A stretch of DNA of 64,000 nt. Source: Macrostomum hystrix. Taxonomy: Eukaryota > Animalia > Platyhelminthes. Shown here piece by piece: positions 9,425 to 59,600 of the stretch. The stretch is taken from assembly GCA_950097015.1 (NCBI GenBank), contig CATNEN010000039.1, positions 2,294,001 through 2,358,000 on the forward strand. Reading direction: 5' to 3'. The notes under the pieces were generated by a model. It worked only from the letters and a program-made list of their open reading frames with translations. It did not search any database and had not been told where the DNA came from. A program made the position numbers and the translations under genes. How positions within the stretch are numbered: position 1 is the first letter of the stretch; each line of letters starts with the position of its first letter.

Positions 9425-9630
9425 GACATTCATTTGGGACGAAATCGGAGAGAGACGGCTTCGTGGCTTGTCGTGCAATTTACGCCCTTTAGGGCCAACC
9501 CCAAGGCACAGTGAGAGTGTAATACTGCCTGACGATAAGAAAGACAGGGCAGAAGTACACACTTTGTGTGAGTGTGTACCTGGGTACACACGGAATGGGC
9601 AGAATTGCCTCTTCGCTAGCTAGGGTCTTC
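9425..9630 (+). mobile_element. SINE copy, opposite orientation
   Basis: Reverse complement of the family core (GCTTGTCGTGCAATTTACGCCC...GGGCAGAATTGCCTC). Confidence 0.65.
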
Positions 9631-35600: not shown

Positions 35601-38600
35601 AGTCCTAGAGAGTGAGAGTCCTAGAGAGTGAGAGTCCTAGAGAGTGAGAGTCCTAGAGAGTGAGAGTCCTAGAGAGTGAGAGTCCTAGAGAGTGAGAGTC
35701 CTAGAGAGTGAGAGTCCTAGAGAGTGAGAGTCCTAGAGAGTGAGAGTCCTAGAGAGTGAGAGTCCTAGAGAGTGAGAGTCCTAGAGAGTGAGAGTCCTAG
35801 AGAGTGAGAGTCCTAGAGTGAGAGTCCTAGAGTGAGAGTCCTGGAGTGAGTGCCCTGGAGTGAGAGTCCTAGAGAGTGAGAGTCCTAGAGTGAGAGTCCT
35901 AGAGAGTGAGAGTCCTAGAGAGTGAGAGTCCTAGAGTGAGAGTCCTGGAGTGAGTGCCCTGGAGTGAGAGTCCTGGAGTGAGAGTCCTAGAGAGTGAGAG
36001 TCCTAGAGAGTGAGAGTCCTAGAGAGTGAGAGTCCTAGAGTGAGAGTCCTAGAGAGTGAGAGTCCTAGAGAGTGAGAGTCCTAGAGTGAGAGTCCTAGAG
36101 AGTGAGAGTCCTAGAGTGAGAGTCCTAGAGAGTGAGAGTCCTAGAGTGAGAGTCCTGGAGTGAGTGCCCTGGAGTGAGTGCCCTGGAGTGAGAGACCTGG
36201 AGTGAGAGTCCTGGAGTGACGAGAGTGAAGGGGAGAGGAGAGGGAATTAGAGGAATATGGGAGAGGAGAGGGAATTAGAGGAAAAGGGGAGAGGAGAGGG
36301 AATTAGAGGAAAAGGGGAGAGGAGAGGGAATTAGAGGAAAAGGGGAGAGGAGAGGGAATTAGGGGGAAAGGGGAGAGGAGAGGGAATTAGAGGGAAAGGG
36401 GAGAGGAGAGGGAATTAGAAGAAAAGGGGAGAGGAGAGGGAATTAGAGGAAAGGGGGAGAGGAGAGGGAATTAGAGGAATAGGGGAGAGGAGAGGGAATT
36501 AGAGGAATAGGGGAGAGGAGAGGGAATTAGAGGAAAAGGGGAGAGGAGAGGGAATTAGAGGAATAGGGGAGAGGAGAGGGAATTAGAGGAAAAGGGGAGA
36601 GGAGAGGGAATTAGGGGAAAGGGGAGAGGAGAGTGAATTAGAGGAATATGGGAGAGGAGAGGGAATTAGAGGAATAGGGGAGAGGAGAGGGAATTATGGG
36701 AAAAGGGGAGAGGAGAGGGAATTAGAGGAAAAGGGGAGAGGAGAGGGAATTAGAGGAAAAGGGGAGAGGAGAGGGAATTAGAGGAAAAGGGGAGAGGAGA
36801 GGGAATTAGAGGAATAGGGAGAGGAGAGGGAATTAGAGGAATAGGGGAGAGGATAGGGAATTAGAGGAGAAGGGGAGAGGAGAGGGAAGTAGAGGAAAAG
36901 GGGAGAGGAGAGGGAATTAGAGGAAAAGGGGAGAGGAGAGGGAATTAGAGGAATAGGGGAGAGGAGAGGGAATTAGAGGAAAAGGGGAGAGGAGAGGGAA
37001 TTAGGGGAAAGGGGAGAGGAGAGTGAATTAGAGGAATATGGGAGAGGAGAGGGAATTAGAGGAATAGGGGAGAGGAGAGGGAATTATGGGAAAAGGGGAG
37101 AGGAGAGGGAATAAGAGGAAAAGGGGAGAGGAGAGGGAATTAGAGGAAAAGGGGAGAGGAGAGGGAATTAGAGGAAAAGGGGAGAGGAGAGGGAATTAGA
37201 GGAATAGGGAGAGGAGAGGGAATTAGAGGAATAGGGGAGAGGATAGGGAATTAGAGGAAAAGGGGAGAGGAGAGGGAAGTAGAGGAAAAGGGGAGAGGAG
37301 AGGGAATTAGAGGAAAAGGGGAGAGGAGAGGGAATTAGAGGAAAAGGGAAGAGGAGAGGGAATTAGAAGAAAAGGGGAGAGGAGAAGGAGAGTGAAAAAT
37401 CTGGTGGCAGTTGCCACATATTTCAACAGAATAACAGACAACGGCTAGCTAAAAACTGCATGACGAGATGGCGTGATAGTCTAAAAGAGGCCCCGATGTA
37501 GTCAGGGTAACTTTGTCACGCTGAAGCAGTGATGCGATGTTTTATAGCGGAGACTTTCAACTCCACTCCGGATTAGCTGCTCCGGTTGTTTTATTGGCAA
37601 AGGAAACTTTTGAGAAGAGAGTACCTTAGTATTCGATTGAGCTGGAATTCAAGGGCCTTTTCCCCAGTTTGGAGTAACTTTAAGCTTTGAGTTGAGTCTG
37701 CAGGAGAATCTGCTCACTGAAAAGTTAGCTGGTTAGCTATCTCAAGAGGGTATAAAGAGGAGTTGAATTGTGCCCCAGGATCAGGGGAGTCGGAGAACAG
37801 GCCGAGGCTTAACCTCTACCGATCTGTGCTTTTAGCTGCCAGCAGAGGACTAGCGGCTTCATCCAAGCAGTCAATCAGAACACGCTCGCCTCCGCCTGAG
37901 TCAGTTGTTCTTAATCTGTGCTCGGGGATTCCTCTCGAGGCAATTCTGCTCATTTCGCTGACTCCTGAGCACACACAAACAGATACTGTCCGCAGGCACT
38001 CACTCACACAATGGTGCACATCTGCCCTGACTTACTCATCGTCAGGCAGTGTACACTTTCACTGTGCCTTGGAGGATGGCCCTAGAAGGGCGTGAATTGC
38101 GCGACTAGCCACAAAGGTTTCTCACAGCGGCTGCGCCGAAAATGAATGAGACTTCGATGCGGAATCGAGCTCAGGGACCTGAGGCAAACGCACTGGATTA
38201 AGATTCCTGCAGAAAACTAAAAGCAAATAGATCTGCGCATCCTGTTTAATAGTTTACTCAGTTGGGATAACCAAGGCAAGTCAGGACCTTCCCAGAATTC
38301 CCTTTCCTCTTGCTCTCCCGCTTTCATTTCCCCAAAGCCCAGCCTAGAAAAGGCCACAGTGAATGTAGCGGCACCAAATGCTGCGGCATGAAAGGGCAGC
38401 GAAGCAAAGCAATACGGAAAGATTCAAAGACGGGAGGAACTATCGTAGAGAGGGTCCGCCTGCCCGTGTCTGGCGATCGTACCGGCTGGCAGAGACGTCA
38501 GAAAGCCAGGCCGCCATCGGCGTGGAATGGCGGGCGGCTGACTAAGAGGGGCCGGAGAAACGCACTGACTATCCGGGCACCGGTGGCTGACTGTGCGCCA

Positions 38601-41600
38601 AGCACTTTCCATTTTTCATTTCCGGGCAAACCCGGCCTTCTTTCTTTCTATCGCCACTGCCCCGGATTCGGCGGTGGCACGACGCATTCATTGCCAGCAG
38701 CATCTGCCCTTTTGTACAGAGTGTTCCATCTTCCCCCGTGCCATCACTAATGATGCCCAGCCGGCTGCTGTGAACAAAGTGCCCCACCACGCAGTCGTTC
38801 GCTCTCGCAAGTCAATAACAACAGATCCTGTGGGGAAGGGGGTCGGCCTCGCCATGTTCGATTGTGAGATTTCCCAGGTTGTGAGGCCTGTTAGACAAAC
38901 TAAAATGCTTCTGGTAATTGTCTGAAAAAGCCGTCATCGAGACAGTACCCGGTTCAAGCTTGCGGTATGGATTGTTTCCATAGCAATAACGGGCATGTCA
39001 GTTGTAAGATGTGTGCTTGAGTTACCACCTCATAGGCTGCAGGTAGGCTGTACCTAATTAAAGTGTTAGCACCGACGAAAGCTAGTATTATTAGTCTTAC
39101 CTGGGGGAAAATATCTCGAGCACAGGCTTTAGTCTCACTCATTGAGTTAAAATGAACAAACAAGTTTTTGTTTTCAGTGAGTCGCGATTCGTGAAAATTG
39201 AATGAATCCAAATGATGGCAAATTCAGCGCAACCGAAATCTATTTCCCGAATATCGAGCAAGCTCTCTTCCAACTACTCAGGGGTCATCCAAGACAATGC
39301 GCGACCCTGCGACAGCCGCCGGTTCGAGGAGGTGAAGGGCTGGAACTGCTCCAGCAGCAATGAGAAGTCTGGCGACGACAACACCAAGTGGACGTGCTTC
39401 GACGCAAATCCATCCGATAAGGACTGGATCCCCAAGCCGGGAATAGATCAGCGATGGCAAGGCCCAAACCAAGGCATCACCAACTTTGACAACATCGGCC
39501 TGGCCATGCTGACGGTGTTCCAGTGCATCACAATGGAGGGCTGGACGCAGATCATGTACTATGTGACTGACAGCATGGGTCCTGAGTTCGCCTGGGTGTA
39601 TTTTATTAGTCTCATCATTCTCGGCTCATTCTTTGTCATGAACCTGGTGCTTGGTGTTCTCAGCGGGTGAGCATAAGCCAGATTGTTGCGTGCACGTGTT
39701 TGATACACGAGTCCACACTTGCGACAGTTCACAATGAACTATTGCATTCCCAAATTCGCAGAGAGTTCTCTAAGGAGCGCGAGAAGGCCAAAAAGAAGGG
39801 CAAGTTTCACAAGCAGCGAGAGCGAATGAAGTTTGAAGAGGACTACAACGGCTACATGGAGTGGATCCTGACGGCTGGTGAGCTCTATGCGCTGCTCAGT
39901 CTGCTGAAACCCGCTGATTGGCTGGCGTTAGATAATAATAATAATATTGATAATATTTGCAGGAGGGCTGCGGGCAGTGGCACATCATTTGGTGACACTA
40001 GACCCGCAGCCAGCGAGGAGGCAATTCTGCCCATTTCGCTGACTCCTGAGCACACACGCACACAGATACTGTACGCGGGCATACGCTCACACAGGTGTGT
40101 ACATCTGCCCATGACTTTCTCATTGTCAGGCAGTGTACACTGTCACCGAGCCTTGGAGGTTGGCCCTCAAGGGCGTAAATTGCACGACAAGCCCACAAGC
40201 CTTCTCTCCGCGGCTGCGCCCCAAATAAATGTGGCCTCGCCGTGGAAAATCGAACTTAGGGACTGTGGTGCGAGAGGCAAACGCGATAACCGCTCTGCCA
40301 CCGACCCCCTGGCGTTAGATAATTTTGTCTCTTTTTTAGACCGGGACCTTCCAACCTCCGCAAGCTGATTGGCTGGCGTTAGATTTTTTCGTCTCTTTTT
40401 CTCAGACCGTGACCTCCCGAACTCCGCAAGCTGATTGGTTGGTGCACTCAACATCGTCAACCCATAGATTTGTGCCCCTCCCCTGAGCCAGACCCGGACT
40501 TTCTTCTAGGCAGTACGAAGGCTAATATACCATTAAATAGTAGATACCTTGACTGCAATCTAAAAAATGTTTACTGAGGTGCTCCCGAAAAAACTTTCAG
40601 AGGATCTATCCGACGACGAAGGCGACGAGGAAGAGGAGGAAGGCAGAAGTGAGTGAAACTGAAATTAGTGTCAATTTTGTTCCTTGGGAATTCATTATCC
40701 ATGGCTGTACATTACTTCCTGTAACATCGTTCCCGTCCCTAATTGGGCGATTACTTGTCATTTCGAAAAGTTGCCCGCTTGTTGATGAAGCGCAAAGATG
40801 CGAAATCCAATTGCAGATCATCACTCGCCAACCCGTCAGGGTACGCAGCTAGCCCACTTAAGGAGGCATTGCTAAATTCAGAGATAGGACATTGAGAGTT
40901 TTTCGTTGAAAATTTTGATTTAGAAATTACTAACAATTTTCGTTCGATTGTTGCCCAATCGAACAGAAACAGCTGTGGGTAGCAGCAGCAGCAGCAGCAG
41001 CAGCTAGTCGCCAGTCATTGTTCATCGCCATTGTTCGTAGCCACGCGGCAGTTCCCGATTTGCACTGAACTATTGAGTTTTTGTTTTGCACCGAAAAATC
41101 TTAGTTTTCAGTTGTTTTCGTTGCTAACAGTAGAGATTTAATTTGTTGCGGATTTAACTATAGGTACCAGTAGATCACTGTAACTCGCATGAGCCAGTGC
41201 AATTTAACCTTTTTAACTGGTAAAAACGGTTTATCGTTACAATCGGCTTGATTGAGTCATTTATGATTCAAGCATTCCTTTCAAGATGGAGTCAGGACGC
41301 ATAGCCTGTTAGAGATGGACTGCGCTGATCATTGCGATTCTCATTAAACAAAAAAAAAAACATTTTCATGAGCGATTTCACTCCGTGAAGTTTATTTTGC
41401 TTTTTCGAAGTTCCCATCCCAGAATAACGCGCAGAATCTTGCAGAGCTCAGTTTTTCTGGAAAACCTGTCTCCTCTCGCTTCGCAGGTAATGACCCAGCT
41501 GATTCAGTAGCCGCTGACCCAGCCATTAAGGCCATCCGAAGGCGTCGAAGACGCATTAGAAGTGAGAACTCAGAGCTCTAAACCTCATTGCCGGAAAGCA

Positions 41601-44600
41601 TAACTGGTTCTTAGTCTCAAACAGAGCATAGAAATTAAACCTCACACCTAGTCCCAGCTATTGCGCGGCGCTAAGGCTGTGTACAACTGTTCAGTCCGTG
41701 GACTGGGGTGGCCGCCGAACCGACCCTAATTTCTAACCCAAATGAGTCTGTAGATCGATGCTTATAGAGAGGCTTATCGCCGCAGCACTTTACAAATATA
41801 GGCCGGACTGTTTTAACTCCCGCATTGCGCGCATTGACACCACCGAGTCACACGCACTAGTTCGCACTGCAGCACTCTAGCCTCACCCAGTTACACACAA
41901 CCGCAGGTCAGAACTGCGGCAAGCTCAAGGCTGCTAACTTTTCTGTTGGGCTGAACGAGTTACGAATATGTCAGTCTTTAACGAGTTTTTTTTCCGGAGC
42001 CTGAGTTTCTCAAACAACAGTCGAACAGACAATTAGTCATAATATTAGACTTTTTAAATAAATGGTAATACTGTTAGAGATTTCCTCCATCATGCTTAGC
42101 TTTTAGAGTTCAGCCTTAATTTCTACTATCAGTGCTTTCTTTTGTTCTCCTGTGGACTCAGTTGGCTGTGTATCCAGATGTTGTCTTATAGAGCTTGGTT
42201 TCTGGGGTCGGCAAGCCAAAGCTACTAATTGAGCTCATTCTAATGTACCGGAGTTCAAAGGCGTAAATGTTTTGCTGGAAATGGGGCAAGTAAACTACTC
42301 GTATTAATTTCTCCCAATGAGTTTATTCGGCAATGCATGTTCCGTAAATGCTAATTACAGTTGTGCACAAACGACTTCATAAATATACGAGTAGATTGCC
42401 TGCACTTTAGTTTTCAGAAGAATCATGGTCCAGGAAGTTAATATGCTCAATTAAATGGCTCAAAATGGCTCAAATTATTTTTTGCTTTCGCAGAAAACAT
42501 GCCAGATGAGTCCGACACGAACGAAAAGAATGAGGAGGGCACCAGCTCGAATCCGGAGGCGGGTCAGCACGGAATTCTTCACACAATAACGTGAGCCGCT
42601 GACTAGACATAAGCAGTAGGACTACCAAGCCATTTTACCGCCCGTAAATCCAACGGCGGAATTCCTGCCCCCGGACTTTGCTGAACCCGAACGGAGCAAC
42701 GCAAGCTAATGAAACCTGTATCCATGAAAATGCTTGACCAGCGAAGTCGGAGATGATGCAGGCACATTTCGGTGATGTGCTGATAAAGTTTGAAGGCCTG
42801 GCAATGCCGCACTGAGGCGCAGTGCAAATTCGTATATAGAAGGGTATAATATACAGTGGCTCTTATGCGGCAAACCAGACCTTCGGCCAGAACCATTGAA
42901 TATCCCGGCGGTCTGAAGGGCTGTCGACTTGATTCTTGTTTCAGAAGATGCGCAACAAAAAGTTGGCCCGTGTTCTTGAGCTTCGTGTGCTTTCGTTGCT
43001 CCGTTCGGGTTCAGCCAAAATAATTGTCAGGGGGATTTGGTAGTTCTACTGTTAAAGTTCACTGCGTTGAATGTCCCGATGGTCTAGGCATTCGTCAATG
43101 ATTGTCCCGGAGTTTCCACTGTACTCGAAGCATTCTCATTTTTACTTTCAGCCGCGCCTTCCACAAGTGGAACCGCCGCTGCCGCCGGTTCTGCCGCCGC
43201 TGCGTGAAGTCTCAGGTGGCCTACTGGATCATCATTGTGCTGGTCTTCCTCAACACCGTCGTGCTCGCCACTCAGTTTTATAACCAGCCGCCCTGGCTTG
43301 AGAACTTCCAGAACAAAGCCAACTACGCATTTGTCGCCATGTTCACCTTCGAGATGCTGCTGAAAATGTACTCGCTCGGCATTCGCACCTACTACAGCTT
43401 CTTGTTTAACAAGTTCGACTTCTTCGTTGTTGTCGCTTCTCTAACTGAGGTGGCCCTGACTGAGACGAATGTCATGCCTAACTTGGGCATCTCTGTGCTC
43501 AGGTAATTGTTCCCTATTTTAAGGGAATTTATGCATTGCCAAATATTTCTGCATGTCTCGAACAGAACTTCAAACTGCTGAATTTAGTCCCGTGACACGA
43601 GGCTCCGACATTCCTTCCACCCAGGTGCGCACGTCTGCTGCGCGTCTTCAAGGTCACGCGCCACTGGAGCTCGCTCAGGAATCTCGTGGCGTCGCTGCTG
43701 GCATCGATCAAGAGCATCGCCTCGCTGCTGCTGCTGCTGTTTCTCTTCATTGTGATCTTCGCGCTGCTCGGCATGCAGCTGTTTGGCGGAAAGTTCAACT
43801 TTGAAAACACGGACAAGCCGCGCAGCAACTTTGACTCGTTCTGGCAGTCGCTCATCACAGTGTTCCAGGTTCGCATCCTGAAAGTACTTTTAAAAGAATG
43901 ACAGTCTGACAGTCTGTCCCTGCTCGTGTTTGGCCCTGACTCAATCTAAATTCTGAAATTACAGCACTTTCAGGAACTGATTTTAATGATTTCAGATCCT
44001 CACTGGCGAAGACTGGAACATGGTCATGTACGACGGCATAAACAGCAACGGCGGTGTTGGAAGCGTGGTGGGTATCCTCGTGGCCTTCTACTTTGTCATC
44101 CTGTTCATCTGCGGCAACTACATCCTGCTCAACGTCTTCCTCGCCATCGCCGTGGACAACCTGGCCGACTCGGACAACTCTGAGGACGAAAAGAAGGAGA
44201 CGGACGAAGAGCAGGAGAAGAAGGACGGCGAGGGTGGCGGCGAGCCGGTAGACGGCGCAGCTGAGCCCGGAGAGGGCGGCGAAGATGGCGACGGCAACAA
44301 TGTCGACGGGATCGCAGCGGAGAACTTACGAGGTATGCATGGTTCGGGGTGTCTGACTGCCCCACTGAAGTCCTGAGCTCAAAACCGCTGGGAGGCCTCA
44401 TTTATTTTTTTAGCGCAGCCGCGGAGAGAAGGCTTGGGGCTTATCGCGCAGTTTGAAATTTTATCCCGCGAGGGCCAAGCCAAAGACACAGTGCAAGTGT
44501 ACATAGACTCTCTGACCATCAAAGGTCACGGCAGATGTACACCTGTGGAGTGTGTGCCATTGTGAACTGTCGTAGAATGGAATCGATACAGAACTGATGA

Positions 44601-47600
44601 GAGCTCGAAAATTGGCGCCATTCACCTTTGACAGCCGGCGGCATAGAGCGAAGCATTCGCCTCGACCTCGGCACAGTCGATGTTGACGTCGATAACCATC
44701 GAATGCCGCCGCTCGGCGAGGAGCCAGAAGGCGGCGATGGCGACGACTCCGAGGCCGAGGAGACACCCGTGACAACGGCCAGGCCGCGCCGCCTCTCCGA
44801 GCTGAATATCAAGGAGAAGATTCGGCCGATCCCGGAGGCCTCGTCGCTATTCGTTTTCAGCAGCACCAATCGGTTTCGAGTGCTGTGCCACCGGATCTGC
44901 AACCACTCTTACTTTGGGAGCGTGGTGCTTGTCTGCATCCTGGTTAGCAGCGCCATGCTGGCTGCCGAGGAGCCGGTCAACTCGCAAAACGTCAGGAACA
45001 AGGTGCGCTTCTCCCTGGGGCATTTCGAAAGGGACATTCATTTAACTGTGGATGATTGTGACTGTGGAGTGTTTGTGATGTACATCTTAGTGTGTGTGAT
45101 GTACATCCGAGTGTGTGTGATGTACATCTTAGTGTTTGTGATGTAGATCCTAGTGTGTGTGATGTAGATCCTAGTGTTTGTGATGTACATCCGAGTGTGT
45201 GTGATGTACTTCCTAGTGTTTGTGATGTACATCCTAGTGTTTGTGATGTACATCCTAGTGTTTGTCATGTACATCCGAGTGTTTGTCATGTACATCCGTG
45301 TGTGTGTGATGTACATCCTAGTGTTTGTGATGTAGATCCTAGTGTGTGTGATGTAGATCCTAGTGTTTGTGATGTACATCCGAGTGTGTGTGATGTACTT
45401 CCTAGTGTTTGTGATGTACATCCTAGTGTTTGTGATGTACATCCTAGTGTTTGTCATGTACATCCGAGTGTTTGTCATGTACATCCGTGTGTGTGTGATG
45501 TACATCCTAGTGTTTGTCATGTACATCCGAGTGTGTGTGATGTACATCCTAGTGTTTGTGATGTACGGGCTAAACTGACCTATAATATTTTACAAACGTA
45601 AAACCTTTTCAGATCCTCAACAATTTTGACTACTTCTTCACAACGGTATTTACTTTAGAAATCATTCTCAAGGTAAGTTCCTTTTAAAACTTTTTACTTA
45701 AGTCAAAACATAATGTGACTGCATTTACATGTTTCTTTCTTATTATAAAATTCGTTCGCTTTTTTTCACGCTTATTTCAGGACTGATTAATTGATTGATT
45801 AATTGATTTTAACAGAGGTCATAAGTTCTCATCCTGTGGCGTGGCCGCATTTAGTTTTTTTTATGCCATACTCATTCTTACTCTGCAAGGCGGATATAAT
45901 GATTGCTACTGTTAGTAGTGTATGGAGGATGAGAATGCAGCAGTTGAAATCGCGCTGATTACTGTTAGATTTGCACCAGAGCTCGGTACAATGACAGTCT
46001 CGGTGCGGTAACACCCCCGCCGCTTTCAGGTCACAGCCTACGGCCTCGTGCTGCACGATGGTTCCTTCTGTAGGCAGGCATTCAACCTGCTTGACATCCT
46101 GGTTGTGCTCACAAGCCTAGCGTCATTCTTTCTTGAGTAGGTGGCACACAATAGCTGAGTTTAGAGTCATTCAGGCATTTCTGTTGTGTCCGCGTAATCC
46201 ACGATTTGTTTTATTTCACTCTTCTCTGAGGCTGCGGTCTTTCTCGACTAAAGAATCTTAATTTTCCGCTATTTTAATTAACTAATATAATATAAAAGCT
46301 CTTAACGTAAGCTGTACTGAACTCCGAAAATGAATTACAGAATCCCGAATCTTAATGTACAGAATCCCGAATCTAAATGACAGAATACCGAATCTGTATG
46401 ACAGAATCCCGAATCTGAATGACAGAATCCTGAATCTGAATGACAGAATCCCGAATCTCAATGACAGAATCCCGAATCTGAATGACAGAATCCCGAATCT
46501 CAATGACAGAATCCCGAATCTGAATGACAGAATCCCGAATCTGAATGACAGAATCCCGAATCTGAATGACAGAATCCCGAATCTCAATGACAGAATCCCG
46601 AATCTGAATGACGGAATCCCGAATCTCAATGACAGAATCCCGAATCTCAATGACAGAATCCCGAATCTGAATGACAGAATCCCGAATCTGAATGACAGAA
46701 TACCGAATCCATAAGAATCCTGAATCTGATTGACAGAATCCCGAATCTGAATGACAGAATCCCGAATCTAAATGACAGAATCCTGAATCTGAATGACAGA
46801 ATCCCGAATCTGAATGACAGAATCCGGAATCCATAAGAATCCTGAATCTGACTGACAGAATCCCGAATCTGAATGACAGAATCTCGAATCCATAAGAATC
46901 CCGAATCTGAATGACAGAATCTCGAAATCCATAAGAATCCCGAATCTGAATGACAGAATCTCGAATCCATAAGAATCCCGAATCTGAATGACAGAATCTC
47001 GAATCCATAAGAATCCCGAATCTGAATGACAGAATCTCGAATCCATAAGAATCCCGAATCTGAATGACAGAATCTCGAATCCATAAGAATCCCGAATCTG
47101 AATGACAGAATCTCGAAATCCATAAGAATTCGGAATCTGAATGACAGAATCCCGAATCTGAATGACAGAATCCCGAATCTGGATGACAGAATCCTGAATC
47201 TGAATGACAGAATCCTGAATCTGAATGACAGAATCCCGAATCTGGATGACAGAATCCCGAATCCATAAGAATCCCGAATCTGAATGACAGAATCCCGAAT
47301 CTGAATGACAGAATCCCGAATCTGAATGACAGAATCCTGAATCTGAATGACAGAATCCTGAATCTGAATGACAGAATCCCGAATCTGGATGACAGAATCC
47401 CGAATCCATAAGAATCCCGAATCTGAATGACAGAATCCCGAATCTGAATGACAGAATCCCGAATCTGAATGACAGAATCCCGAATCTGAATGACAGAATC
47501 CTGAATCTGAATGACAGAATCCTGAATCTGAATGACAGAATCCCGAATCTGGATGACAGAATCCCGAATCCATAAGAATCCCGAATCTGAATGACAGAAT

Positions 47601-50600
47601 CTCGAATCCATAAGAATCCCGAATCTGAATGACAGAATCCCGAATCTGAATGACAGAATCCCGAATCTCAGCTATATAAAAGAGAATCCGTATTAAAAAA
47701 ACCCTGAATAAAGTTATATTTTAAAACGGTGAAGTAATTATGTAATTATGTTAATTAAGAAACATTTCTTCTAATCTATCTATAAATCTAAAATCAGAAA
47801 ACCCAGCACTACTCTGTAGCAGTTGTGCTCACAATTTGTTTATACCCACCTGTGTAACATTTGTTTAATTAACTTCGCTATAGTAACTTATAATTTTCTT
47901 ATCACATTGTGTTGATATCATAAAGAAATCTCACGACAATTAATCATTTTGGTTTTGTTTAGTCCTAATTGATTTGCTCTGTTTTTGGTTGTAAAAAATC
48001 AGCACTGACATTGTAATTAATAGCTCTAGTTCGCATTGTGTTGCTAGCACAGCTCATGCAGCGCGTTGTCCTTACTCAACTCGTGCCTTAAATTGCAACA
48101 GGTGGTCACATATGGCCTAATCCTGCACAAGGGTTCCTTCTGCAGGTCCCGGTTCAACCTGTTGGACCTGCTGGTTGTGTTTGTTGCCCTGATTTCTCTG
48201 TTCTCGCCGTGAGTGTTCAGTGAAACAGCCGCAGCAGTGAATGAAAGCTCTTGTTATTGCCCGTTGCTACAAACTTTTGACAGCTTTTAATGCGTCAATA
48301 GCTGTGATGTGAGGCTGCAGAACAGGGCCTGCACGAGTTCGTACCTTTTCGTTTTTGAATGAATAGAAATTTCAATTGCGTTAAATTTAAGTAAAACTGA
48401 AATGCAGTACAAAGACCTATTAAACTGTACAAAGACCAGGGGGTATTTTAAATACCCAAAATACCATAGCAGTTTTTGTTCTTGACGTAGAATGACTTTG
48501 GAAGTCAGTTCATAAGTAAAGGGCGGAAAACTTTGATCCATATGGTGGACTTTCAAAAAAATCGGTCGTTCAGTTTTGGAGCCATCGTGAAGTAGGCCAT
48601 TGGTATTCGAAGTATCCTCGTGGTCTCTTCCCAGGGAGACAAAAAGCGTGCTCTTTCAAAAAGATGTGCCAATGTAGGCTCTGTTGAGAATGCGTTTTGC
48701 TTGCAGATTTTGTGGTGACGGTGAGACGGTCTGTTTAAATGACATCAATTATTTGAGTTCAATAGAAGAAAACTAGTTTTGCTTGCTCGGATTAGGCAAT
48801 GCTTGACAGTCTCAGGTGTAATTCCATCGGGTTGAACAACAGAAAGTAACTGCTCAAAGAACTATTATAGTACCACTCTTGTGAGTGAAATCTGAGCAAA
48901 GTTTTCTACTAGGAGTCGCATTTATTTGCTTGCTATTCATGCAGTCCGACAAATCGTCAATGTAATTTCGCTAGAACCCCTGAATGCAGTCCTGAGATGT
49001 GAAAGAAAGAATGCTTTTAAATGTTTTGCTCTATTTTTGTTGCCAACCCACAGCTCGGAAACTTTTTCCGTGGTGAAGATTCTGCGCGTGCTGCGAGTCT
49101 TGCGACCTCTGAGGGCCATCAACAGGGCCAAGGGGCTCAAGGTGAGCAGGGCTTACAGCTCATCTTTACAGCTCTCGGCTAGGCATTCTTAGCTCACCGC
49201 AAACTTTGAGAACTGCAACAACGATTATGTACAAGGGAGCATTCTAAGCACTGATTGATGATTTCGTGACACCCATTCTGCTGACCTTCAAGCACATGCA
49301 GGCACATACTCTCTCAGGTGTGTACATCTGCCCTGACTTTTCATTGTCAGGCAGTGTACACTTTCACTGTGCCTTGTGATTATCTCTCATAGACGACGAG
49401 CCCCCAAGTCTCCTCTCCGCGGTGACGTCTCAAATTAATGTAGTCCCGCCGCGGATTCGAGCTTAGGTGCCTGAGTAGGACCCGTTTTCGCAGCAGCACT
49501 CTGCACAGCCTTCCAAACATTGAGCATTATTCTCCTTTCATCCAGCACGTGGTCCAGTGTGTGATCGTGGCGGTGAAGAGCATCGGAAACATCATGCTCG
49601 TCACCTTCCTGCTTGAGTTCATGTTCGCCGTCATTGGGGTGCAGCTGTTCAAGGGCAAGTTCAGCCATTGCAACGACCGGTCCAAGTCAACGCCGGCTGA
49701 ATGCCAGGGCAAATTCATCGTCTACAATGACAATGACATTACAAAGCCGAAAGCTGAGGACAGAAACTGGAAAAATTCTCCTCTGAACTTTGACAACGTG
49801 GCCAACGCAATGCTCTCATTGTTCGCAACGTCCACTTTCGAGGGCTGGCCTACGTAAGTGACTGCCAGTTGATTGCGGATCCGTATTCGAGATTAAAGAT
49901 GAAAAAATCACTGCGAGAATTTCGCACCCCCGATTCCAGTCTGCTGTACACGTCCATCGACTCGGACTTGGAGGGCCATGGCGGCACCTACAACAACAGG
50001 CCCCTGATCGCCATGTTCTACATCTGCTACATCATTGTCATCGCCTTCTTCATGGTCAACATCTTCGTAGGCTTTGTGATTGTCACATTTCAGCAGGAGG
50101 GTGAGCAGGAGTACCGAAACTGCGAGCTGGACAAGAATCAGGTGAGAAATCGATCAGTTCCGTTTGATTTTCCTGTAGGCATGCCAAGTCTCATTCCGTT
50201 TGGACTAGCTTTTCACTATCTCATTATCGGGACCGCGAAAATTTTGCAAACCCCTGAACTGCTTTGAAGTATTTCAAAGACTAAAATTCGTACAGTTTTG
50301 AAAGTAAAATTTCAATGCCCTGTATCAATAATGCGCAATATATATGTTTGTTTATACTGTTGTATAGCCAATGCCATGGCAGGCCAACTGACCCTGTTTA
50401 ATCAGACTGGACAGATTAAACAGTCTGCGTGACTGAACCCAAAGCCAATCGAAGTAACTGTGGATATATCGGTCCGCGTTACCTGTACCAACTGTTGCTC
50501 AGATGTGGCATGACGGGTCGCATGTGGATTGGACGCCGTGGCAGACAATCCCTGAGCTATTTCCCCGCTATAAATGTGTCGAGCTTAGAATCCTTGCGCG

Positions 50601-53600
50601 ACGGGCAACTGTTTGTGCCTTGCGAGCTCTCGGATACAGCAATTCTGAAAGCAATCTAGCAATGTTGTCCAAGCCGCTGCATCCTGTGCTGCTAATCTTG
50701 CTCCTGCTGCACCTGTCGCACCTGCTGTCGGCTTTCTACCCTGATGCGGACGATATGAACATGGACTTCCTGAAGAAGGAGGACTCGAACGCTGGGCCGG
50801 ACATGCAGCGCATGATGCTGATGAACACGGAGGACCCGAAGCTGCGCGCGGAGGCGGAGGAAGCTTTCCAGGAAATCCTCCGCGCCCGCCGGCTCAGCAA
50901 GCTACAGGTGTGCCGGCGCGAATGCGTCAACGAGCACGAGGCGGCGGCCGAGTTCGCCAGCTGCAATGCCAGGTGCGAGGCCACTCAACCGCCTGGCGAG
51001 TACGAAGAGCTGCGAACTCTGCATGGCTCCTCAGACTCTGCGGACGTCAAGAAGCCTGTGGATGAGAAGGCCGACAAAGTCGAGAAGAAGAGTGGTGACC
51101 ATCCAGCGAAGAAGCCTAAAGACAGTGGAGAGCTGTAGTACTCTCACATACAGTCTGCTTCTTTGTTACACCGTACTCTATAATGGACCACTTAAGAAGC
51201 AATTCAAAGCTACTTGCCTTGTCTATCATGCTGGAACTTTAGCTTAAAATCATTGACGCGCTGTTGATGGAAACCACACTAACAATAAAGTGTTAAATTT
51301 ATTCACTGTTGTTAAAAAATAAAAAGTTTAAATTAAAAATGAATGAACACCAAAATTCTTATTTCGGTTCCGGAAAAATAGTGGAGAAATATATTTTATG
51401 ACTTGACTTCGCCCCGCTCTAGACAATTAGCCGCTGCGCAGCACCTCCAGGGCGCACAGTCGTCCAGGTGCACCCATCACTCCACCACCCGGGTGGGCAC
51501 CGCTGCCGCACAGGTAGAGGCCTGCAACCGGGCTGCGATAGTCGCAGAACTCCGGAGTTGGCCTCATAAAGTATAGCTGGTCGAGCGACATTCCACCGTG
51601 GAAGATGTTGCCGCCAGTCAGGCCGAACGTATCCTCCAGGTCCTGAGGCGTGAGCAAATCGCTGCCCAGGACGGAGGCGGAGAAGCCGGGCGCATAGTCG
51701 TCAATGCATTTGAACACGGTGGCCTTGTAGCGCTCTTTGTCCTCTGGTGTCCAAGGCTTACCGTGCAGCAGCTTGGGTGTGTACTGGGTGAATAACTGTA
51801 CCACGTGCGCACCTGGTGGTGGAAAGAGTTCGCATGGCTTTAGGTTTGGGATGATTACTCGTGTGACAAACGACAGTCTGTGTTAGGGTATTAACTTATC
51901 AACCGTTAAAAGGGCCCATTTGTACCTTTAGGCGCAATACTGTCGTCCAAAGATGAAGGGACAGTCATCTCGATCACAGGCCTGTCAGCATAGCCACCTT
52001 GCAGGCAAGCCCTGTAGGCAGCGTCAATCATTGAGCAGTTGTCCGAGTTCAGGTGAATTGTGCCGTGAAAGTGGTCGGGGCACAACCCAGTGTTGGTGGT
52101 CGGATTGGGATCAGCCAGAAAATTAGGCAGGTGAGACACGGCGACATTGATTTTAGTTACAGGTGAAGCGTAGTCAATGCGACGTACGCTGGCCAAGAAA
52201 TCGTCAGGTAGGCAGCCTGGCGGCAGCAAGTCTTCAAATGTTACCTTTGGCGTCGCGTTAGACAGTACCACTGGGGCATCAACCTCGCTGCCGTCGGCTA
52301 GAACAACACCTTCCGTCCTACCATTGGCTACCTTGACTTGCGACACTGCGGTGTTGGTGAATATCTTGACGCCTGAAAGGGGGGGCAGTTGTGTTAAACA
52401 TTGATTCTTGGCAATTAATTAATTAGACTACTAGTTAGTAATCTCGTAAGTAGTCCACAAGTCTACGTCGTAGTTACATTATTGCAGCTATTCATTCTCA
52501 AAAACACTTGAGAGCAGTTGGGGTTCTTATAAATGCGTCGCCCAAAACCGCCTGTCGATGTTGCACTCACCCCTAGACTCGCCGCTCCTAGCAATGGCCT
52601 TGCTAACGGATCCCATTCCACCCCGCACGTAGCCCCAAGCGCCGGGGATATTGTTCACGCCGCCCATCACGTGATGCAGGAGCACGTAGCCACTGCCAGG
52701 CGTGTCCGGACTGATCATGGCGCCGATGACGCTGTCCGTGGCCAGAGTGGCCTTCAATGGTTTGCTCTCAAACCAGCGATCCAGAATTCGAGTGGTAGGC
52801 GCGGTCAGGAGCTCGTACAGCTGCAGAAGTTTTGGCCCGAGCTCCAAGGCCATTTGGTAAAGGGGCTTGACTCGCCTGAGCTCGCTAGCCTTGGCGCGTA
52901 GTCCGCTTGCAGCCAGCATGCGGTGCAAATTGAACGGCGGGTTGTCCAGCAGGGGCTCCAGGCTCGCAGCCAGACGGCCCATGTAGTCCTCGTAGCGGAA
53001 GTACTGATCCGCGTCCCGGGGCGAGAACGCTGCGATAGACTTGTGCGTCCTGCCGTGGTCTCGACCGAGCAGGAGGGAGCGGGCTCCCGTTTTGGAGGCC
53101 GGCTGCAGGAGCGGCGTGTAGGAGCTGGGATCGCGGGTGTAGACCACTAGGCCGTGCTGATCCAGCTGCAGGTCGGCTGCCACCTTCGGGCGCAGCAAGC
53201 TCAGCACGTACGAGCAGCGGCTGAACTTGAAGCCGGGCACAATCTCTTCAGTCACGGCGGCGCCACCAATGACGGGTCGGCGCTCAAGGACGCAGACTTT
53301 CTTACCTGCACCGGCCAGGTAGGCAGCCGCCACGAGTCCATTGTGCCCGGCTCCAATCACAGCGCAGTCGTATCGACCGGCCGGACTTGATTTCGCAGCG
53401 CAGAGAAGCCGCTGATGTTGTCCATGAATTTGAAGCAAGTATTGCCTCAGCAGGCTTCGAGTACCGTGCATTGCTTAGAAAGTCTTGCAGTCCAAAGCAA
53501 AGCTTCTGCAATGTTTGCATTTGGGTCTCCTCTGACAGCGTTGTCAACATGCGCCCAGGGCAAGAAAGCCTGTTTATAACATGAGGGGGGTGGTTTGCAG

Positions 53601-56600
53601 TTTAGGCAGCTTGAAATGCGGTGAGTGAACAGTCTCCATTGTGCACCCTGGATCCAGCCCCAGACTGAGGGTTCGCCTCTAAATTACTGCTGCAGCCCTT
53701 CCTTCAGTGCAGCTATCGGGCAGCGTGTTGGTGTGCAATCGCATTGGCTTATCGTTTCGTGTGACTGTAGGGTTAAATTATTATTTATTGGACGATCGAT
53801 AAAGAGGACAGTAGATCCAGCCCAATTACCCGCCTGTGTGTCATTGCTAGCAGTGGAAAAGCGAGTCAAAGCCAGGGGTAGCTTTCCAGAAGTGAAACAC
53901 AATATTTATTCAAATTTTATATGCGCTAATTTCCTTAATCCAGATTTCAAAGTCAGGTTGCAAGGCGTGCAGTTCAGTAGACTACAATAGCCGCGTACAA
54001 TGAACTGTACGCAGTGGGGCCGCCACATGCCCAGCCAGGCTCACTCAAGAGCTGACGCGAGCACTCAGGTGAAGAAAGTAGAAATTGCTTCGCATTGTTC
54101 TGCCCAAGTAAACCCATCAGGCCATCCACATGGGCTGTGCGCAGCTGGCGGGGCGGGGGGGGGGCGTTCACCCTCCGCTCTGCTCTTACATCCAATTGCC
54201 TCCGCCAATTTCTGTTTCTCTCCACCCCAAGGCGTCCTCCAAAGCCCTGCTCAAATTACTCTAAAAATAGAAAGTATATAATAAGAGAAAACTTTCCCTC
54301 GGCCACCCAAGCTATCCGCAAGCCTGTACTGCATGCCGAAGCCAACACTTACACACAGAAAATGCATGTGTGAGTAATTCCAGCAGAGTTAGGTGCGAAG
54401 GACCGCTTTGCGAGCGACTCGACTGCGAATTCCGTTAAAGCTCCTGCATTGCATTAAAAAAACGACTGAAAGAACGAAGAACTAAGGACTGCGCAAAGGC
54501 AACCAGAGCAGGAGGCGCACAAAGGAGAGCAGATTTCCAAGCGCACCTCACTCCGAAAGACTCACTTCCTGCCTTCCCCTGCTGCCTACCTGTTTATCGA
54601 GCGCGTGAGCGCTAATAAGCGACACTCGCGGAAAACTCTACCTGCGCCCTCCGTGCCGTTCATATAATCGCCTCCTCCCTCAGCCTACCTGTGCGCGATA
54701 GAGAGACGCAGAGAGGTCGCAGAGAAGCGAAAAAGAACGCATAGACTTGTGGACTGCGAGCCCGGCTCGCAAAGACTTCTCAGCCTTCGCAGCATGCGGC
54801 CCTCGCAACGTCCCTGCTGGCTATTCGCCCTGCTAGCACTGCTAATCCAGTCCGTTGCTGCCAACATCGCTACATTCAATGTCAGCGACATCACTAAATG
54901 GACTCGCGCCAACGCCACCGGAGTCCCAGTCGGCCTCGTCACAGTCTTTGAGCTGCGAACTTCGCATCCGGGAGGTTCAGTCTGGGGGCTGTTCGGATTA
55001 TCGACCGATAATTCCAGCGACATTATCTACTTGAAGATCGGCCTGACAGGCCCGAATTTGACACTCGATGGGTCTTTCATCAACAGCCCGCGCCAAATCG
55101 CTGCCAATGTCACTGATGGCAGATGGCACTCAGTGAAAATCCACCTATATGCTAACACAAGCAGCTCAACTGTCAGCGTGGATGGTATTAGCCAGCTGCA
55201 ATGGAACGCACATTCATGGACGCTAATTAACTGGACAGTCATGACCTTCGGTGGCGTCAATGGTTCTGATGGACTTCGCGGTTGCCTTGCAAATGCGAGC
55301 GTTACTAGAATCTTCAACAACGATGTACTCAACGCGACCTCAGTAGTCGAATTTTCGGGGACAGTGAATGCCACTGCCTGCATAGAGGACCCATGTCTCT
55401 GCGCTAACGGTGGCTCGTGTCTGCCCAGTCCGCGGTGGAACCTGCATTCTGGCTGCAATTGCACTGGGACAGGCTTCGGTGGTGATTTTTGCCTAGTCGC
55501 CAAAGATTTTTGTAATGCAAGTGGCAGTGGCGGCGACCCGTGCTCCGGTCACGGCCACTGCATCAGCATCGCCAAAAACGAGACATTTATCTGCAACTGC
55601 ACCGATGGCTACATTGGTTCTAACTGCTCAACTCCTCCAGCGACGATCCCGAGTTCCACGACGATGCCAACGCCGACAACGACACCGACACCGACAATAA
55701 CCACATTGTCAACAGCGAGACAGCCTGCGACTCCGGCGCCGCAAAGTGACACCCGTCTGGTCGTCGGCCTCGTGGTTGGTCTGCTGCTGCTGCTGCTGGC
55801 AGGCACCGGGGCCGGCCTGGCGTTCAAGATTGTGCGCGACCGCCGGAAAGACTCCGGCGTCTACAAGCCCTACGACAGGGAGGTCGGTGGCGTCAAGTCC
55901 GGCCAGCGCAGTGCGCAAGACATCCTCAGACCGCCAAATGAGGAGAGGCTGATCTGAGCACGCAGGTGCTTGGGGCGGTTGTCTCGATTGGCCAGTGCAG
56001 ATCAGCTAAACCCTTTGTACTTTTAGCATGCTGATGTCAGCGATGAGTCATTTATCGTGCCTCAAAGAGATCCAGACTCAATCCTCCTTCGGGGCATTTC
56101 CCTACTCAATTTTTTGCCCTCTCTCTGGGTCGGCAATCCGATCAGAGGAAATTGCGAATTTCACCCAGATGAGACTCGCTTGACAGGCGCTCAGACCCTT
56201 GCGCTTATCGGATTAAATTGGTCGTTGCCTGCTCTCCTTCAAACCTCCAAACTAGATTCGCATTCGCATTATCAATAAAATGAAATGGCTGAAGTGCTAA
56301 GGATTCCATGCAAGCTGGGCGCATGAAATGCGCAGCGGCGGTTCAAGCAATCTCTGCTCATTCCTATTTTTCTTTCTCACGCATTCACGCATCCATTGCG
56401 CACTTTCTACAGATTTGTGTAATTTTTAAGACGATTTGCTTCAATCACAAGTAGCAATTTTTGTAAACCATCAAGCTAGTATTTTCGTAAGCATATTGTT
56501 CAACAAAGCATCACGGCTAAATCCAGTGTCAAAAGTTTTCTAAATTTGCACATAAAGGTCAGCACTTTGCTTTTAGAGAAGGTATTTAGGCTAGGTATTT

Positions 56601-59600
56601 ATTTTAATTCCTAAGTAAAGTGCTCTTGTCTTCACCTCTAGGGCAAATATACTAGCAAATATAATGTACCAAGTCTGCGAAAAACAGTTAATCTAGAGAC
56701 TTTTTTCTTTTGACAAATCAGCAGGCCACACAGTCAGCTTGACGAGACCATTGCTAGCGGCATGGCTAGCATATCGCCTTATACAAGCTATCGTAGTAAA
56801 ACATGTGTATAATTTGCAAGAGAATAATTTAGTGATACTAGACCCACAGCCAGCGAGGATGCAATTCTGCCCATTTCGCTGACTCCTGAGCACACACGCA
56901 CACAGATACTGTACGCTGGCACACGCTCACACAGGTGTGTACATCTGCCCTGACTTCCTTATCGTCAGGCAGTGTACACTGTCACTGTGCCTTGGATGTT
57001 AGCCCTCAAATGCGTAAATTGCATGACAAGCCCCAAATGAATGTGGCCTCGTCGCGGAATCGAGCTCAGTTTTCAATCCCAAAAATCTAATCTCAATCTT
57101 TAAACGTTCTCCCATCTCCCGATCTCACGCAGCGCAAATGCATCGAATTCGCGCTCAAGGCGAAGCCCATCAGACGGTACATACCTCAGCAGCGGCTGCA
57201 GTACAAAATCTGGTGGTTTGTCACATCGACACCATTTGAGTATGGAATCTTCCTGCTCATCATGCTCAACACGATCGCCCTGGCCATGAAGGTTCGCCTG
57301 AAAAATGTTTCATTTTTATCAGTGATTTGCAAAGGAACGATTAGTAGCAACATATTAATAGGGCTTGTTGTGCTCAAACTATTTCTGCAGTTTGAAGGCC
57401 AACCAGAGACTTACAGTTCGGTGCTGGACTACTTCAACATGCTCTTCACTGTCATCTTCACTATTGAATTCATACTCAAGCTAGTGGCTTTTAGTTTTAG
57501 GGTGAGTTGTTTGGAAGTACGGTTGAGTATTCTCTGTACAACTTTCCGTTTAAAATATTACCTATTGATCAAATTTATCATTTAGAATTACTTCAGCGAT
57601 CGTTGGAATGTGCTGGACTTCATCATTGTGTTGGGCTCGTATATCGACATCATCTCGAGCAAGTTTGCGGTGAGTGCTCGGCCAATTAAACCCCACTGGT
57701 GAAGCAGTTTTCTTTACTCCGCTCGAGTCACACAGTGCCACTGTTTTTTTAACAACCAACTAACTGAACTCACGATGCAAGTATCGATTCGCCAACTGAT
57801 AAAATCTCTCTTTGTCTCTTTTTCGGCTCCAGTCTTATAGTATTTCAGAGCCTGCACTACCGCCACTTCACACGGCTGCATTTGACGCTGACAAACATGG
57901 CCATACTCACGTATGCCACAGCAATGCTCCACTAAAATGCTCACTTTTTTTACTGTTTCATAACTGTGCCCTATGCCGCGTCATTTGAGCCGGAGGAGTG
58001 AGCTCAGATTCGGATCGAAACGCTTCTTGACGCTTCTCTTTCTAGACGTTGTCATTTTTGTGCCAATTAAGAAACCGTAGCTTCACTTCTGTTTCGACGG
58101 AGCACGTTGGCAATTTAGTTGACGCAGTTTTTTTCTAGTGCACAAAATCTATGTAGTCACGTGCCACCTCAATGATCCTTATTTAGCTTTCAGTCCTATC
58201 GAGTTGAAAGATCTGCTATGAAAATTGTTTTGCGAAAATTGAACTCAAGGTTTCAATTTATCTTCTACTACACGTAGCGAGCACGTAATTTAGTTCTGAG
58301 ACTAGTCTGATCACCAGTTTGAGGATACACGTTTCTTGTGTTTAGACACCGCAATGTTGTACCTAAATCTCACTTACATTTTTACTGTTGATCCTTGATT
58401 TGAATTTGAATTTTCGGTTAAAAGAGTCGGGGACCTTCATTCAATCGTGTTCCCTAGTTAGTCCATGAAGTCAGAACCTCCAGGATCGTGCCACTGAAGT
58501 TGACCCTGAACTCGCTGTCCACGAAGTTAGTGTCCTGAAGTCGGAGTCCCCCGAACGTGCCGAAGTCGGCACGCGTCTATTGGAAGAGATACCTAGAGCT
58601 CATGATATTGACTTATGTTATCACTTGATACCTATTCCGTGGTACCTAGATTTAATACTTAGGTGTGTTCACTGATGTCGATAAATAGCTCGTACGAGCT
58701 GCCTTCAAAACGCAACCAACCCGCCAACTTCAGACAAGCAAGGCGACAATTTCCATCGGGTTCTTCCGCCTGTTCCGAGCAATGCGACTAGTGAAGCTTT
58801 TGAATAGGGGCGAGCATCTTAGAACTCTGCTGTGGACCTTCATCAAGTCATTCCAGGTGATTTGTTCATAGTGTTCTTAACGAATAATATAATTTCCAAC
58901 ATACCGAATAGACGCGCTCTTTCTGAGAAGAGTGAGAGTGAGAAGAACGAAAAACTGCCCTAACCAAAACATCCTCTAACACGACTAAAAAACATCATTG
59001 AACATTCCTACTTAAGCGTCCTCTGACATGCCTGCCAAAGCGTCCTCTGACACTCCTACCAAAGTGTCCTCTGACCCTTCTACCAAAGCGTTCTCTGACC
59101 CTTCTTCCAAAGCGTCCTCTGACCCTTCTACCAAAGCGTCCTCGAACACTCCTACCAAAGCTTCCTCGGACACTCCTACCAAAGCGTCCACTGACCCTTC
59201 TACCAAAGCGTCCTCGGACACTCCTACCAAAGCGTCCTCTGACATTCATACCAAAGCGTTCTCGAACACTCCTACCAAAGCGTCCACTGACCCTTCTACC
59301 AAAGCGTCCTCTAACACGACTACAAAAACATCATTGAACATTCCTACTAAAGCGTCCTCTGACATGCCTACCAAAGCGTCCTCTGACACTCCTACCAACT
59401 ACCGACTACCAACTACCTCTGACCCTTCTACCAAAGCGTTCTCTGACCCTTCTTCCAAAGCGTCCTCTGACCCTTCTACCAAAGCGTCCTCGAACACTCC
59501 TACCAAAGCTTCCTCGGACACTCCTACCAAAGCGTCCACTGACCCTTCCACCAAAGCGTCCTCGGACACTCCTACCAAAGCGTCCTCGAACACTCCTACC

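What the first reader, a model, noticed from the sequence alone, without database searches (positions are those of the whole stretch)
50142..57132. Three complete genes nested in a single Cav1 intron, two on the host strand
Seen: Cav1 splices in phase 0 across 7 kb (CELDKNQ|gt...ag|RKCIEF). Inside are a secreted-protein gene (+), 3-exon PYROXD2 (-) and mini-Crumbs (+). The two + genes have TATA-like and AATAAA signals. Unlike many other Cav1 introns here, this one has no large satellite array. Known: nested genes are usually single and antisense. Inference: Cav1 transcription must pass two sense polyA signals (51284, 56274), so it needs polyA suppression, mutually exclusive tissue expression, or release of the nested mRNAs by SL trans-splicing.
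Basis: partly seen in the sequence, partly recalled or inferred. Interest (0 to 1): 0.8.

Follow-up and report, generated by a model that had tools for sequence, protein, structure and literature searches.

The report
Three genes inside calcium-channel intron
A flatworm calcium-channel gene carries three transcribed genes inside one 7-kb intron that is spliced out whole; each likely has its own promoter, and the layout (intronless on the host strand, spliced on the other) is the usual one for nested genes, so it is likely ordinary.

Summary
Real, but ordinary in kind. The window is from a Macrostomum flatworm. The Cav1 junction 50141|57133 (GT-AG) is in 4 of 4 runs laid, from 2 studies. Both halves match one M. 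lignano paralogue (89.6% and 89.8%). All three nested genes are transcribed. No spliced-leader tail is seen, so release by trans-splicing is unlikely. M. lignano accession order suggests the nest is conserved. The two same-strand genes are intronless and the spliced gene is antisense, the Drosophila pattern. Multi-gene nests are common in Drosophila (461 of 833 pairs), so 'usually single' is wrong. Satellites are absent mainly because 76% of the intron is transcribed. How Cav1 passes the sense polyA signals is untested; general protection of internal introns is likeliest. One run and one M. lignano gene-name link hint at a sense RNA ending inside the intron, which would give a three-repeat Cav1.

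The parts
49940..50141 (+). Cav1 exon (repeat III S6 to start of III-IV linker), 202 nt, donor CAG|GTGAGA
   Evidence: 58/67 aa identical to M. lignano Mlig000393
50142..57132 (+). Cav1 host intron, 6991 nt, GT-AG, phase 0
   Evidence: joint in 4 of 4 runs; M. lignano models also break at this position
57133..57291 (+). Cav1 exon (III-IV linker, IV S1), 159 nt
   Evidence: 51/53 aa identical to Mlig000393
50142..50267 (+). 41-codon read-through frame into the intron; would end a truncated three-repeat Cav1 if the intron is not spliced
   Evidence: one contig of run X2 enters the intron from the exon; M. lignano equivalent is 9 unrelated residues
50569..50574 (+). TATAAA before nested gene 1
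   Evidence: contigs start at 50577, 50610, 50619
50662..51138 (+). Nested gene 1: intronless, 158 aa, predicted signal peptide, conserved RARR/RAKR site, twin CX3C helical hairpin, terminal -EL; no family
   Evidence: 68% identical to M. lignano Mlig017802
51284..51323 (+). Two sense AATAAA (51284, 51318), 3' end of gene 1
   Evidence: contigs end at 51279, 51308, 51386
51427..51812 (-). Nested gene 2 (FAD oxidoreductase, CrtO/phytoene-desaturase-like; PYROXD2 by recall), exon 3
51926..52372 (-). Nested gene 2, exon 2
52571..53471 (-). Nested gene 2, exon 1 (coding part)
53573..53578 (-).
   Evidence: contigs start at 53540, 53533, 53525
54275..54280 (+). TATATA(A) before nested gene 3
   Evidence: contigs start at 54327, 54329
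54794..55957 (+). Nested gene 3: intronless short Crumbs-like protein, 387 aa (signal peptide, LamG, EGF, Thr-rich stalk, TM, 40-aa tail with G-x-Y-x-P-x3-E and ERLI)
   Evidence: 56% identical to M. lignano Mlig032429g1
56274..56279 (+). Proximal AATAAA of gene 3
   Evidence: contigs run past it in 3 of 4 runs
56658..56663 (+). AATATA, candidate distal polyA signal of gene 3, T-rich tract about 40 nt downstream
   Evidence: contigs end at 56664, 56678, 56685; inferred
56824..57069 (.). High-copy dispersed repeat (partial copies near 39984, 37937, 9588, 44558 and elsewhere in the window)
   Evidence: (summed depth over 5000 in 3 of 4 runs); no Rfam match

Best explanation
The 7-kb stretch is a true Cav1 intron that is spliced out whole and holds three transcribed genes, each likely started from its own TATA promoter and likely ended at its own polyA signal, while the Cav1 polymerase likely reads through those signals by the ordinary protection of internal introns. 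Shown: splice junction, transcription of all three genes, two antisense introns, no introns in the two sense genes. Inferred: own promoters (TATA at contig starts), conservation in M. lignano (accession order), and tolerance of the nest because the same-strand genes offer no splice sites to capture the Cav1 donor. Untested: how the polyA signals are ignored in the host transcript (U1-type protection, no terminal-exon definition), and whether different cell types lessen the conflict.
For: Junction in 4 of 4 runs, with 151-162 letters on the short side in three and 27 in the fourth. Halves 89.6% and 89.8% identical to Mlig000393 versus 74.6/80.0 and 75.0/76.2 to two paralogues. TATAWA 8-54 nt before contig starts for all three genes, joint chance 4e-5 to 6e-4 by background, window chosen after seeing the data. 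Coverage drops to zero between genes in 3 of 4 runs. M. lignano PAA65284/65286/65287 share a 253,392-nt contig and PAA49883/49885/49886 form the same series; PAA49886 stops in this very intron. Same-strand nested genes are single-exon in 72.5% of Drosophila cases versus 37.4% (PMC3814207). None of 6 strong sense U1-like sites lies inside the two sense mRNAs (post hoc).
Against: No U1-like site of 7/9 or better lies within 1 kb upstream of any sense polyA signal; the true donor is 1.14 kb and 6.1 kb away, against a median protective range of about 500 nt quoted for Drosophila. So local telescripting is not supported by the sequence. Run X2 covers 50112-56678 without a gap, which separate genes alone do not explain. 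Contigs give no strand, start, end or level. Neither border is bridged by 31 letters. The M. lignano layout rests on accession numbers, not coordinates, and its oxidoreductase was not retrieved.
Confidence: 0.72

Rival explanations
1. The nest is a leaky or regulated stop for Cav1. A real share of Cav1 transcripts is cut at a nested polyA signal, giving an mRNA for repeats I-III plus 41 residues, so nested-gene activity tunes channel output, as at mouse host/nested loci with premature host polyadenylation.
For: In X2 a contig enters the intron from the exon (starts 50112) and cover is continuous to 56678, where gene 3 ends, while the intron's last 38 nt show no cover and the spliced contig runs unbroken through the acceptor. 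In M. lignano the Crumbs-like and secreted models share the prefix Mlig032429, and prefixes mark same-strand 95% clusters, which hints at one sense RNA over both. Model PAA49886 ends inside this intron. Precedent: PMC11694760 passage, PMC3192792 abstract.
Against: Seen in 1 of 4 runs; strand unknown; nascent pre-mRNA, antisense read-through or some genomic DNA would look alike. The read-through tail is not conserved (41 versus 9 residues). A model that stops at a large intron is a common annotation break. Spliced Cav1 is present in all 4 runs.
Confidence: 0.17
2. The two sense genes are released by SL trans-splicing from a longer sense precursor (the Cav1 pre-mRNA or an operon-like unit).
For: About 30% of M. 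lignano genes are SL trans-spliced and 15% lie in operons (PMC8629364). A TTCCAG matching its acceptor motif lies at 54378, just after three upstream ATGs in the gene 3 leader. The shared Mlig032429 prefix.
Against: No such motif before gene 1, and about one is expected by chance in a 470-nt leader. Contigs of both genes align over their whole length, start at non-AG positions and run unbroken through the candidate acceptors (255 loose ends and 1643 pieces were not shown). TATA boxes sit at the starts. The sense genes are 3 kb apart and split by an antisense gene, outside the paper's operon rule. Cleavage of the Cav1 precursor would destroy that Cav1 transcript.
Confidence: 0.06
3. The three genes lie elsewhere and were assembled into the Cav1 gap by error, helped by the dispersed repeat near the 3' border, or the halves belong to different Cav1 genes.
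Against: Halves match one paralogue equally and are joined in 4 of 4 runs. The independently assembled M. lignano genome gives neighbouring accessions in the same order in two copies, with a model breaking in the same intron.
Confidence: 0.04

Closest known systems
Drosophila nested/including gene structures (Lee and Chang 2013, PMC3814207; Assis 2016, PMC5174743; passages read)
   Same: Small genes in a large intron of a long host; several per host (461 of 833 pairs in complex nests, up to 13 per host); same-strand genes intronless, intron-bearing gene antisense.
   Different: Flatworm; two of three genes on the host strand (about 29% of fly pairs are same-strand); expression divergence between host and nested genes could not be tested here.
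Mouse host/nested loci with premature host polyadenylation (Wood 2008 and Cowley 2012, seen only as cited in PMC11694760) and human nested-gene interference (PMC3192792, abstract)
   Same: A promoter-bearing gene inside a host intron, with the risk of host transcripts ending in the intron.
   Different: There premature host polyadenylation was measured; here it is a hint from one unstranded run. No imprinting is implied.
Multi-gene introns such as human NF1 (OMG, EVI2A, EVI2B) and Drosophila dunce (both recalled, no call)
   Same: Three or more protein-coding genes in one intron.
   Different: By recall the NF1 trio is all antisense and the intron far larger; here 76% of a 7-kb intron is filled.
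M. lignano SL-resolved operons (PMC8629364)
   Same: Close genes in a genus with abundant SL trans-splicing.
   Different: Genes alternate strand, each has a TATA box at its contig start, and no leader tail was seen.
Short Crumbs proteins (mammalian CRB3, C. elegans CRB-3 and EAT-20; PMC4359734 passages)
   Same: Type I membrane protein with FERM-binding Y10/E16 and C-terminal ERLI, small ectodomain.
   Different: Keeps one LamG and EGF repeats (387 aa); tail 40 rather than 37 aa; R7 is Ser; single exon; M. lignano has a second Crumbs-tail gene (Mlig013136).

Membership tests
Intron-nested genes | Host exons on both sides belong to one gene and are spliced across the inner genes | tested here: met
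   Joint in 4 of 4 runs; both halves match Mlig000393 at 89.6% and 89.8%
Intron-nested genes | Inner genes are complete, lie wholly in the intron and are transcribed | tested here: met
   ORFs 158, 577, 387 aa with contig cover; orthologues of two in M. lignano
Intron-nested genes | Physical continuity of the intron in genomic DNA | tested here: inconclusive
   No border bridged by 31 letters; indirect support from M. lignano accession order
Intron-nested genes | Inner genes have their own transcription starts | tested here: inconclusive
   TATA 8-54 nt before contig starts for 3 of 3 genes; contigs cannot prove a start
SL-resolved operon (Macrostomum) | Adjacent same-strand genes within about 1 kb, not interrupted by an antisense gene | tested here: not met
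   Sense genes about 3 kb apart with an antisense gene between; rule
SL-resolved operon (Macrostomum) | Spliced leader on the 5' end of the mRNA | tested here: inconclusive
   No leader tail on any listed contig, none broken at an acceptor; contigs are weak for this and the loose-end table was cut
Host gene with intronic polyadenylation at a nested gene | Polyadenylated host transcripts ending in the intron | not testable with these tools
   Only unstranded contigs; hint in 1 of 4 runs
Cav1 (L-type) alpha1 | Best relatives are L-type alpha1 subunits; repeats collinear | tested here: met
   Top hits are named as L-type, muscle or type-D calcium channel alpha1 where named; 20 HSPs along PAA65287 residues 62-1551
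Crumbs family | C-terminal ERLI PDZ-binding motif | tested here: met
   Ends PPNEERLI in both species
Crumbs family | FERM-binding motif with Y10, P12, E16 | tested here: met
   Aligned to 4wsi_X (E 0.6, weak alone); Y10, P12, E16 kept, R7 not
Crumbs family | Large ectodomain with many EGF repeats and several LamG domains (canonical Crumbs) | tested here: not met
   One LamG and one Pfam EGF hit (15 Cys in all) in 387 aa; short members exist
Crumbs family | Apical localisation and binding to Stardust/PALS1 or Par6 | not testable with these tools
   No experiment available
PYROXD2 | FAD-binding Rossmann fold with CrtO/phytoene-desaturase-like body over about 580 aa | tested here: met
   Three exons tile NF045689 positions 3-251, 259-404, 427-536 of 563, far below its curated cut-off; 577 aa
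PYROXD2 | Orthology to animal PYROXD2 | not tested

The most novel reading that the evidence does not exclude
The nested polyA signals act as a built-in switch on an L-type calcium channel. When the inner genes are active, part of Cav1 transcription ends inside the intron and yields a three-repeat Cav1 (I-III plus 41 residues) that cannot conduct and could suppress full-length channels. A conserved flatworm gene nest would then couple an epithelial-polarity gene and a peptide-precursor-like gene to calcium-channel dosage.
Probability: 0.13. Interest if true: 0.65.

Novelty: new member of a known kind. Interest (0 to 1): 0.3.

Why it matters
As it stands it is a clean flatworm example of a rule known from flies: same-strand nested genes are tolerated when they have no introns. 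It is compact (7 kb, three genes, two or three sense polyA sites) and likely conserved in M. lignano, which has transgenesis, so it is a handy locus for testing how a host transcript ignores functional polyA signals 1-6 kb from its splice donor. It also warns annotators that Cav1 models break at this intron. It would matter more only if the truncated Cav1 transcript proves real and regulated.

Tried and rejected
No whole genome is held for the window, so frequency of nesting in this genome was not measured. No holder is on record as RNA; the four runs laid were treated as cDNA because they lack three canonical introns on two strands. No Rfam match in the intron at E<=1. Gene 1: no Pfam or NCBIfam family, no Atlas hit, model pLDDT 61 with 3 sequences, no Foldseek hit at E<=0.001 (best, E about 1-4, are plant helical-hairpin peptides), no relative in metagenome contigs. 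Ten other non-repeat ORFs (six in Cav1 introns, four upstream) gave no Pfam hit above cut-off, and the six intronic ones none at all; this is not a full search for other nested genes. Mlig000393, 017802, 032429 and 007680 were not found in the supplements of PMC5816591, PMC8662610, PMC12801592 or PMC7806878 (files may be cut or use other ids); those of PMC8629364 and PMC5946080 could not be read and could hold SL or expression status. Earlier scan notes: nothing. The first paralogue comparison mixed intron into downstream HSPs and was replaced by the exon-wise one, which used 19 exons (the second alternative exon and one short repeat-III exon left out; three exon ends approximate). Rejected: lack of satellites as a signal, since transcripts fill 5323 of 6991 nt and three other introns of 841-2616 nt also lack large arrays. 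Rejected: AATAAA count as evidence by itself. Depths were not used to rank genes.
Full report
Organism and host gene. Two nested proteins have as their only close relatives Macrostomum lignano proteins at 56% and 68% identity, so the window is from another Macrostomum. No whole genome is held. M. lignano Cav1 PAA65287 (Mlig000393g1) maps collinearly from about 26.2 kb to 60.7 kb of the window. Exon 49940-50141 ends CAG|GTGAGA and exon 57133-57291 follows an AG, in phase 0. Over 19 exons the part before the intron is 903/1008 (89.6%) and the part after 238/265 (89.8%) identical to Mlig000393, against 74.6/80.0% and 75.0/76.2% for two other M. lignano Cav1 genes. The halves belong to one paralogue. 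The exon sizes around the intron (202, 159, 111, 84 nt) match those I recall for human CACNA1C, so the intron is probably ancient and the genes moved in; this is recalled, not tested.

Transcript evidence. Twelve runs hold the stretch, none on record as RNA. I laid four (X2, X3, X4, X7; two studies), all as contigs. All four show the joint that skips 6991 nt at GT-AG, and both CT-AC joints of the antisense gene, so they behave as cDNA. Gene 1 is covered by ungapped contigs 50610-51386, 50619-51279 and 50577-51308; gene 2 from 53533, 53540 or 53525 down to about 51371; gene 3 by 54327-56482 (plus 56479-56664) and 54329-56685. In X3, X4 and X7 cover is zero in the bins between the exon and gene 1 and between genes 2 and 3. 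These spans fill 5323 of 6991 nt, which largely explains the missing satellite. Six of the nine other introns of 800 nt or more have an array over 500 nt, three do not.

The three genes. Gene 1 (158 aa) has a predicted signal peptide, four cysteines in a twin CX3C hairpin and no family. Gene 2 is 901+447+386 nt, 577 aa without stops, with GT-AG introns of 198 and 113 nt; its exons tile a CrtO-like profile in order. 'PYROXD2' fits by recall, but no call gave the name. Gene 3 (387 aa) has LamG and EGF hits and a tail that aligns to Drosophila Crumbs (E 0.6), keeping Y10, P12, E16 and ERLI, the residues named in PMC4359734 and PMC3564977 (passages). It is a short Crumbs-like protein.

Promoters and ends. 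The joint chance is 4e-5 to 6e-4 depending on background, with the window chosen afterwards. The listed contigs align from first to last letter, start at non-AG positions and pass unbroken through candidate acceptors. The M. lignano acceptor motif YTNCAG (PMC8629364, parts 1-2 of 4 read) is absent before gene 1 and occurs once in each other leader, about chance. SL release is therefore unlikely though not excluded. Sense AATAAA are at 51284, 51318 and 56274; three is not above chance. Gene 3 contigs pass 56274 by about 400 nt in 3 of 4 runs and end by an AATATA at 56658, a likely second site.

Conservation. In M. lignano the Crumbs-like, secreted and Cav1 proteins are PAA65284, 65286, 65287 on a 253,392-nt contig and PAA49883, 49885, 49886 in a second copy (Crumbs-like and Cav1 on a 77,714-nt contig). 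PAA49886 and a UniRef model end by reading into this same intron, and another model starts just after it. This is the window's order and makes misassembly unlikely. It rests on accession numbers, not coordinates, and the middle accession (the expected oxidoreductase) was not retrieved.

How it likely works. Three independent genes sit in a spliced intron. The two on the host strand have no introns and the spliced one is antisense. In D. melanogaster 71% of nested genes are antisense, and same-strand ones are single-exon in 72.5% of cases versus 37.4%, read as selection against mis-splicing (PMC3814207, passages). 461 of 833 pairs are in complex nests (PMC5174743, passages), and mammals show only a slight orientation bias (PMC11694760, abstract and first third of Results). 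Tissue exclusion and SL release do not remove it, because the Cav1 polymerase still copies the signals. The likeliest answer is the ordinary protection of internal introns (U1 telescripting, PMC4889658 passages; no terminal-exon definition). Against this, no U1-like site of 7/9 or better lies within 1 kb before any sense signal, and the true donor is 1142 and 6132 nt away. The step is inferred.

The open lead. In X2 one contig starts at 50112, runs into the intron, and cover continues to 56678. The intron's last 38 nt are uncovered and the spliced contig crosses the acceptor unbroken. In M. lignano a Crumbs-like model and a secreted model share the prefix Mlig032429; prefixes come from same-strand 95% clustering (PMC5730564, section 31 and passages). 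Both fit a sense RNA that runs through the nest and stops at gene 3, which from the Cav1 promoter would encode repeats I-III plus 41 residues. Premature host polyadenylation at nested genes is known in mouse and human (passage; abstract). But this is 1 of 4 runs and unstranded; nascent RNA, antisense read-through or genomic DNA would look similar; and the tail is not conserved. That truncated channels suppress full-length ones is recalled. I give the regulated form 0.13.

Literature. Three searches listed no paper on this locus or on nested genes in Macrostomum; they cover open-access PMC and bioRxiv only. Four supplements lacked the gene ids and two could not be read; the unread ones may hold SL or expression status.

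Verdict. Observation confirmed with small corrections; interpretation partly supported. A new member of a known kind; interest 0.30.

Noticed in passing
window 46030-46136 and 48102-48208 (+): Two 107-nt exons in the same phase encode the same Cav1 segment (III S2), a likely mutually exclusive pair. The first is 35/35 identical to Mlig000393; the second is closer to paralogue Mlig000343 (27/35 versus 22/35), so the pair may predate the paralogues. Vertebrate Cav1.2 has such a pair (exons 21/22; recalled).
   Followed up: partly
window 56824-57069; also near 39984-40260, 37937-38174, 9465-9628 (-), 44483-44559 (-): A dispersed repeat of about 250 nt, 74-91% alike among copies, with very high summed depth in the runs; no Rfam match. 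Possibly a SINE- or MITE-like element.
   Followed up: partly
window 50662-51138: The 'secreted' protein looks like a precursor: conserved RARR/RAKR site before a CX3C-X12-CX3C helical hairpin. Both species end in -EL after unrelated tails, so ER retention is an alternative to secretion (motif readings recalled).
   Followed up: partly
window 51280-51390: Genes 1 and 2 converge tail to tail; their contigs overlap by 16 nt in X3 (51371-51386), and AATAAA hexamers sit back to back on both strands (51284 +, 51298-51303 -, 51318 +).
   Followed up: no
window 54327-54793: The Crumbs-like gene has a leader of about 470 nt with three upstream ATGs (54333, 54362, 54366).
   Followed up: no
P0145 / P0178 (M. 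lignano Mlig013136): A second M. lignano protein with a Crumbs tail, probably a fragment of the long Crumbs, so the nested gene is likely a short paralogue.
   Followed up: partly
window 55181: One contig of run X7 leaves the window sequence here with 255 unrelated letters; single contig, possibly chimeric.
   Followed up: no
window 719-2080 (-), 3853-4779 (-), 6616-7266 (-): Long ORFs upstream of Cav1: a 453-aa frame with a likely membrane segment, a low-complexity 308-aa frame, and a 216-aa frame with a weak Ig match.
   Followed up: no
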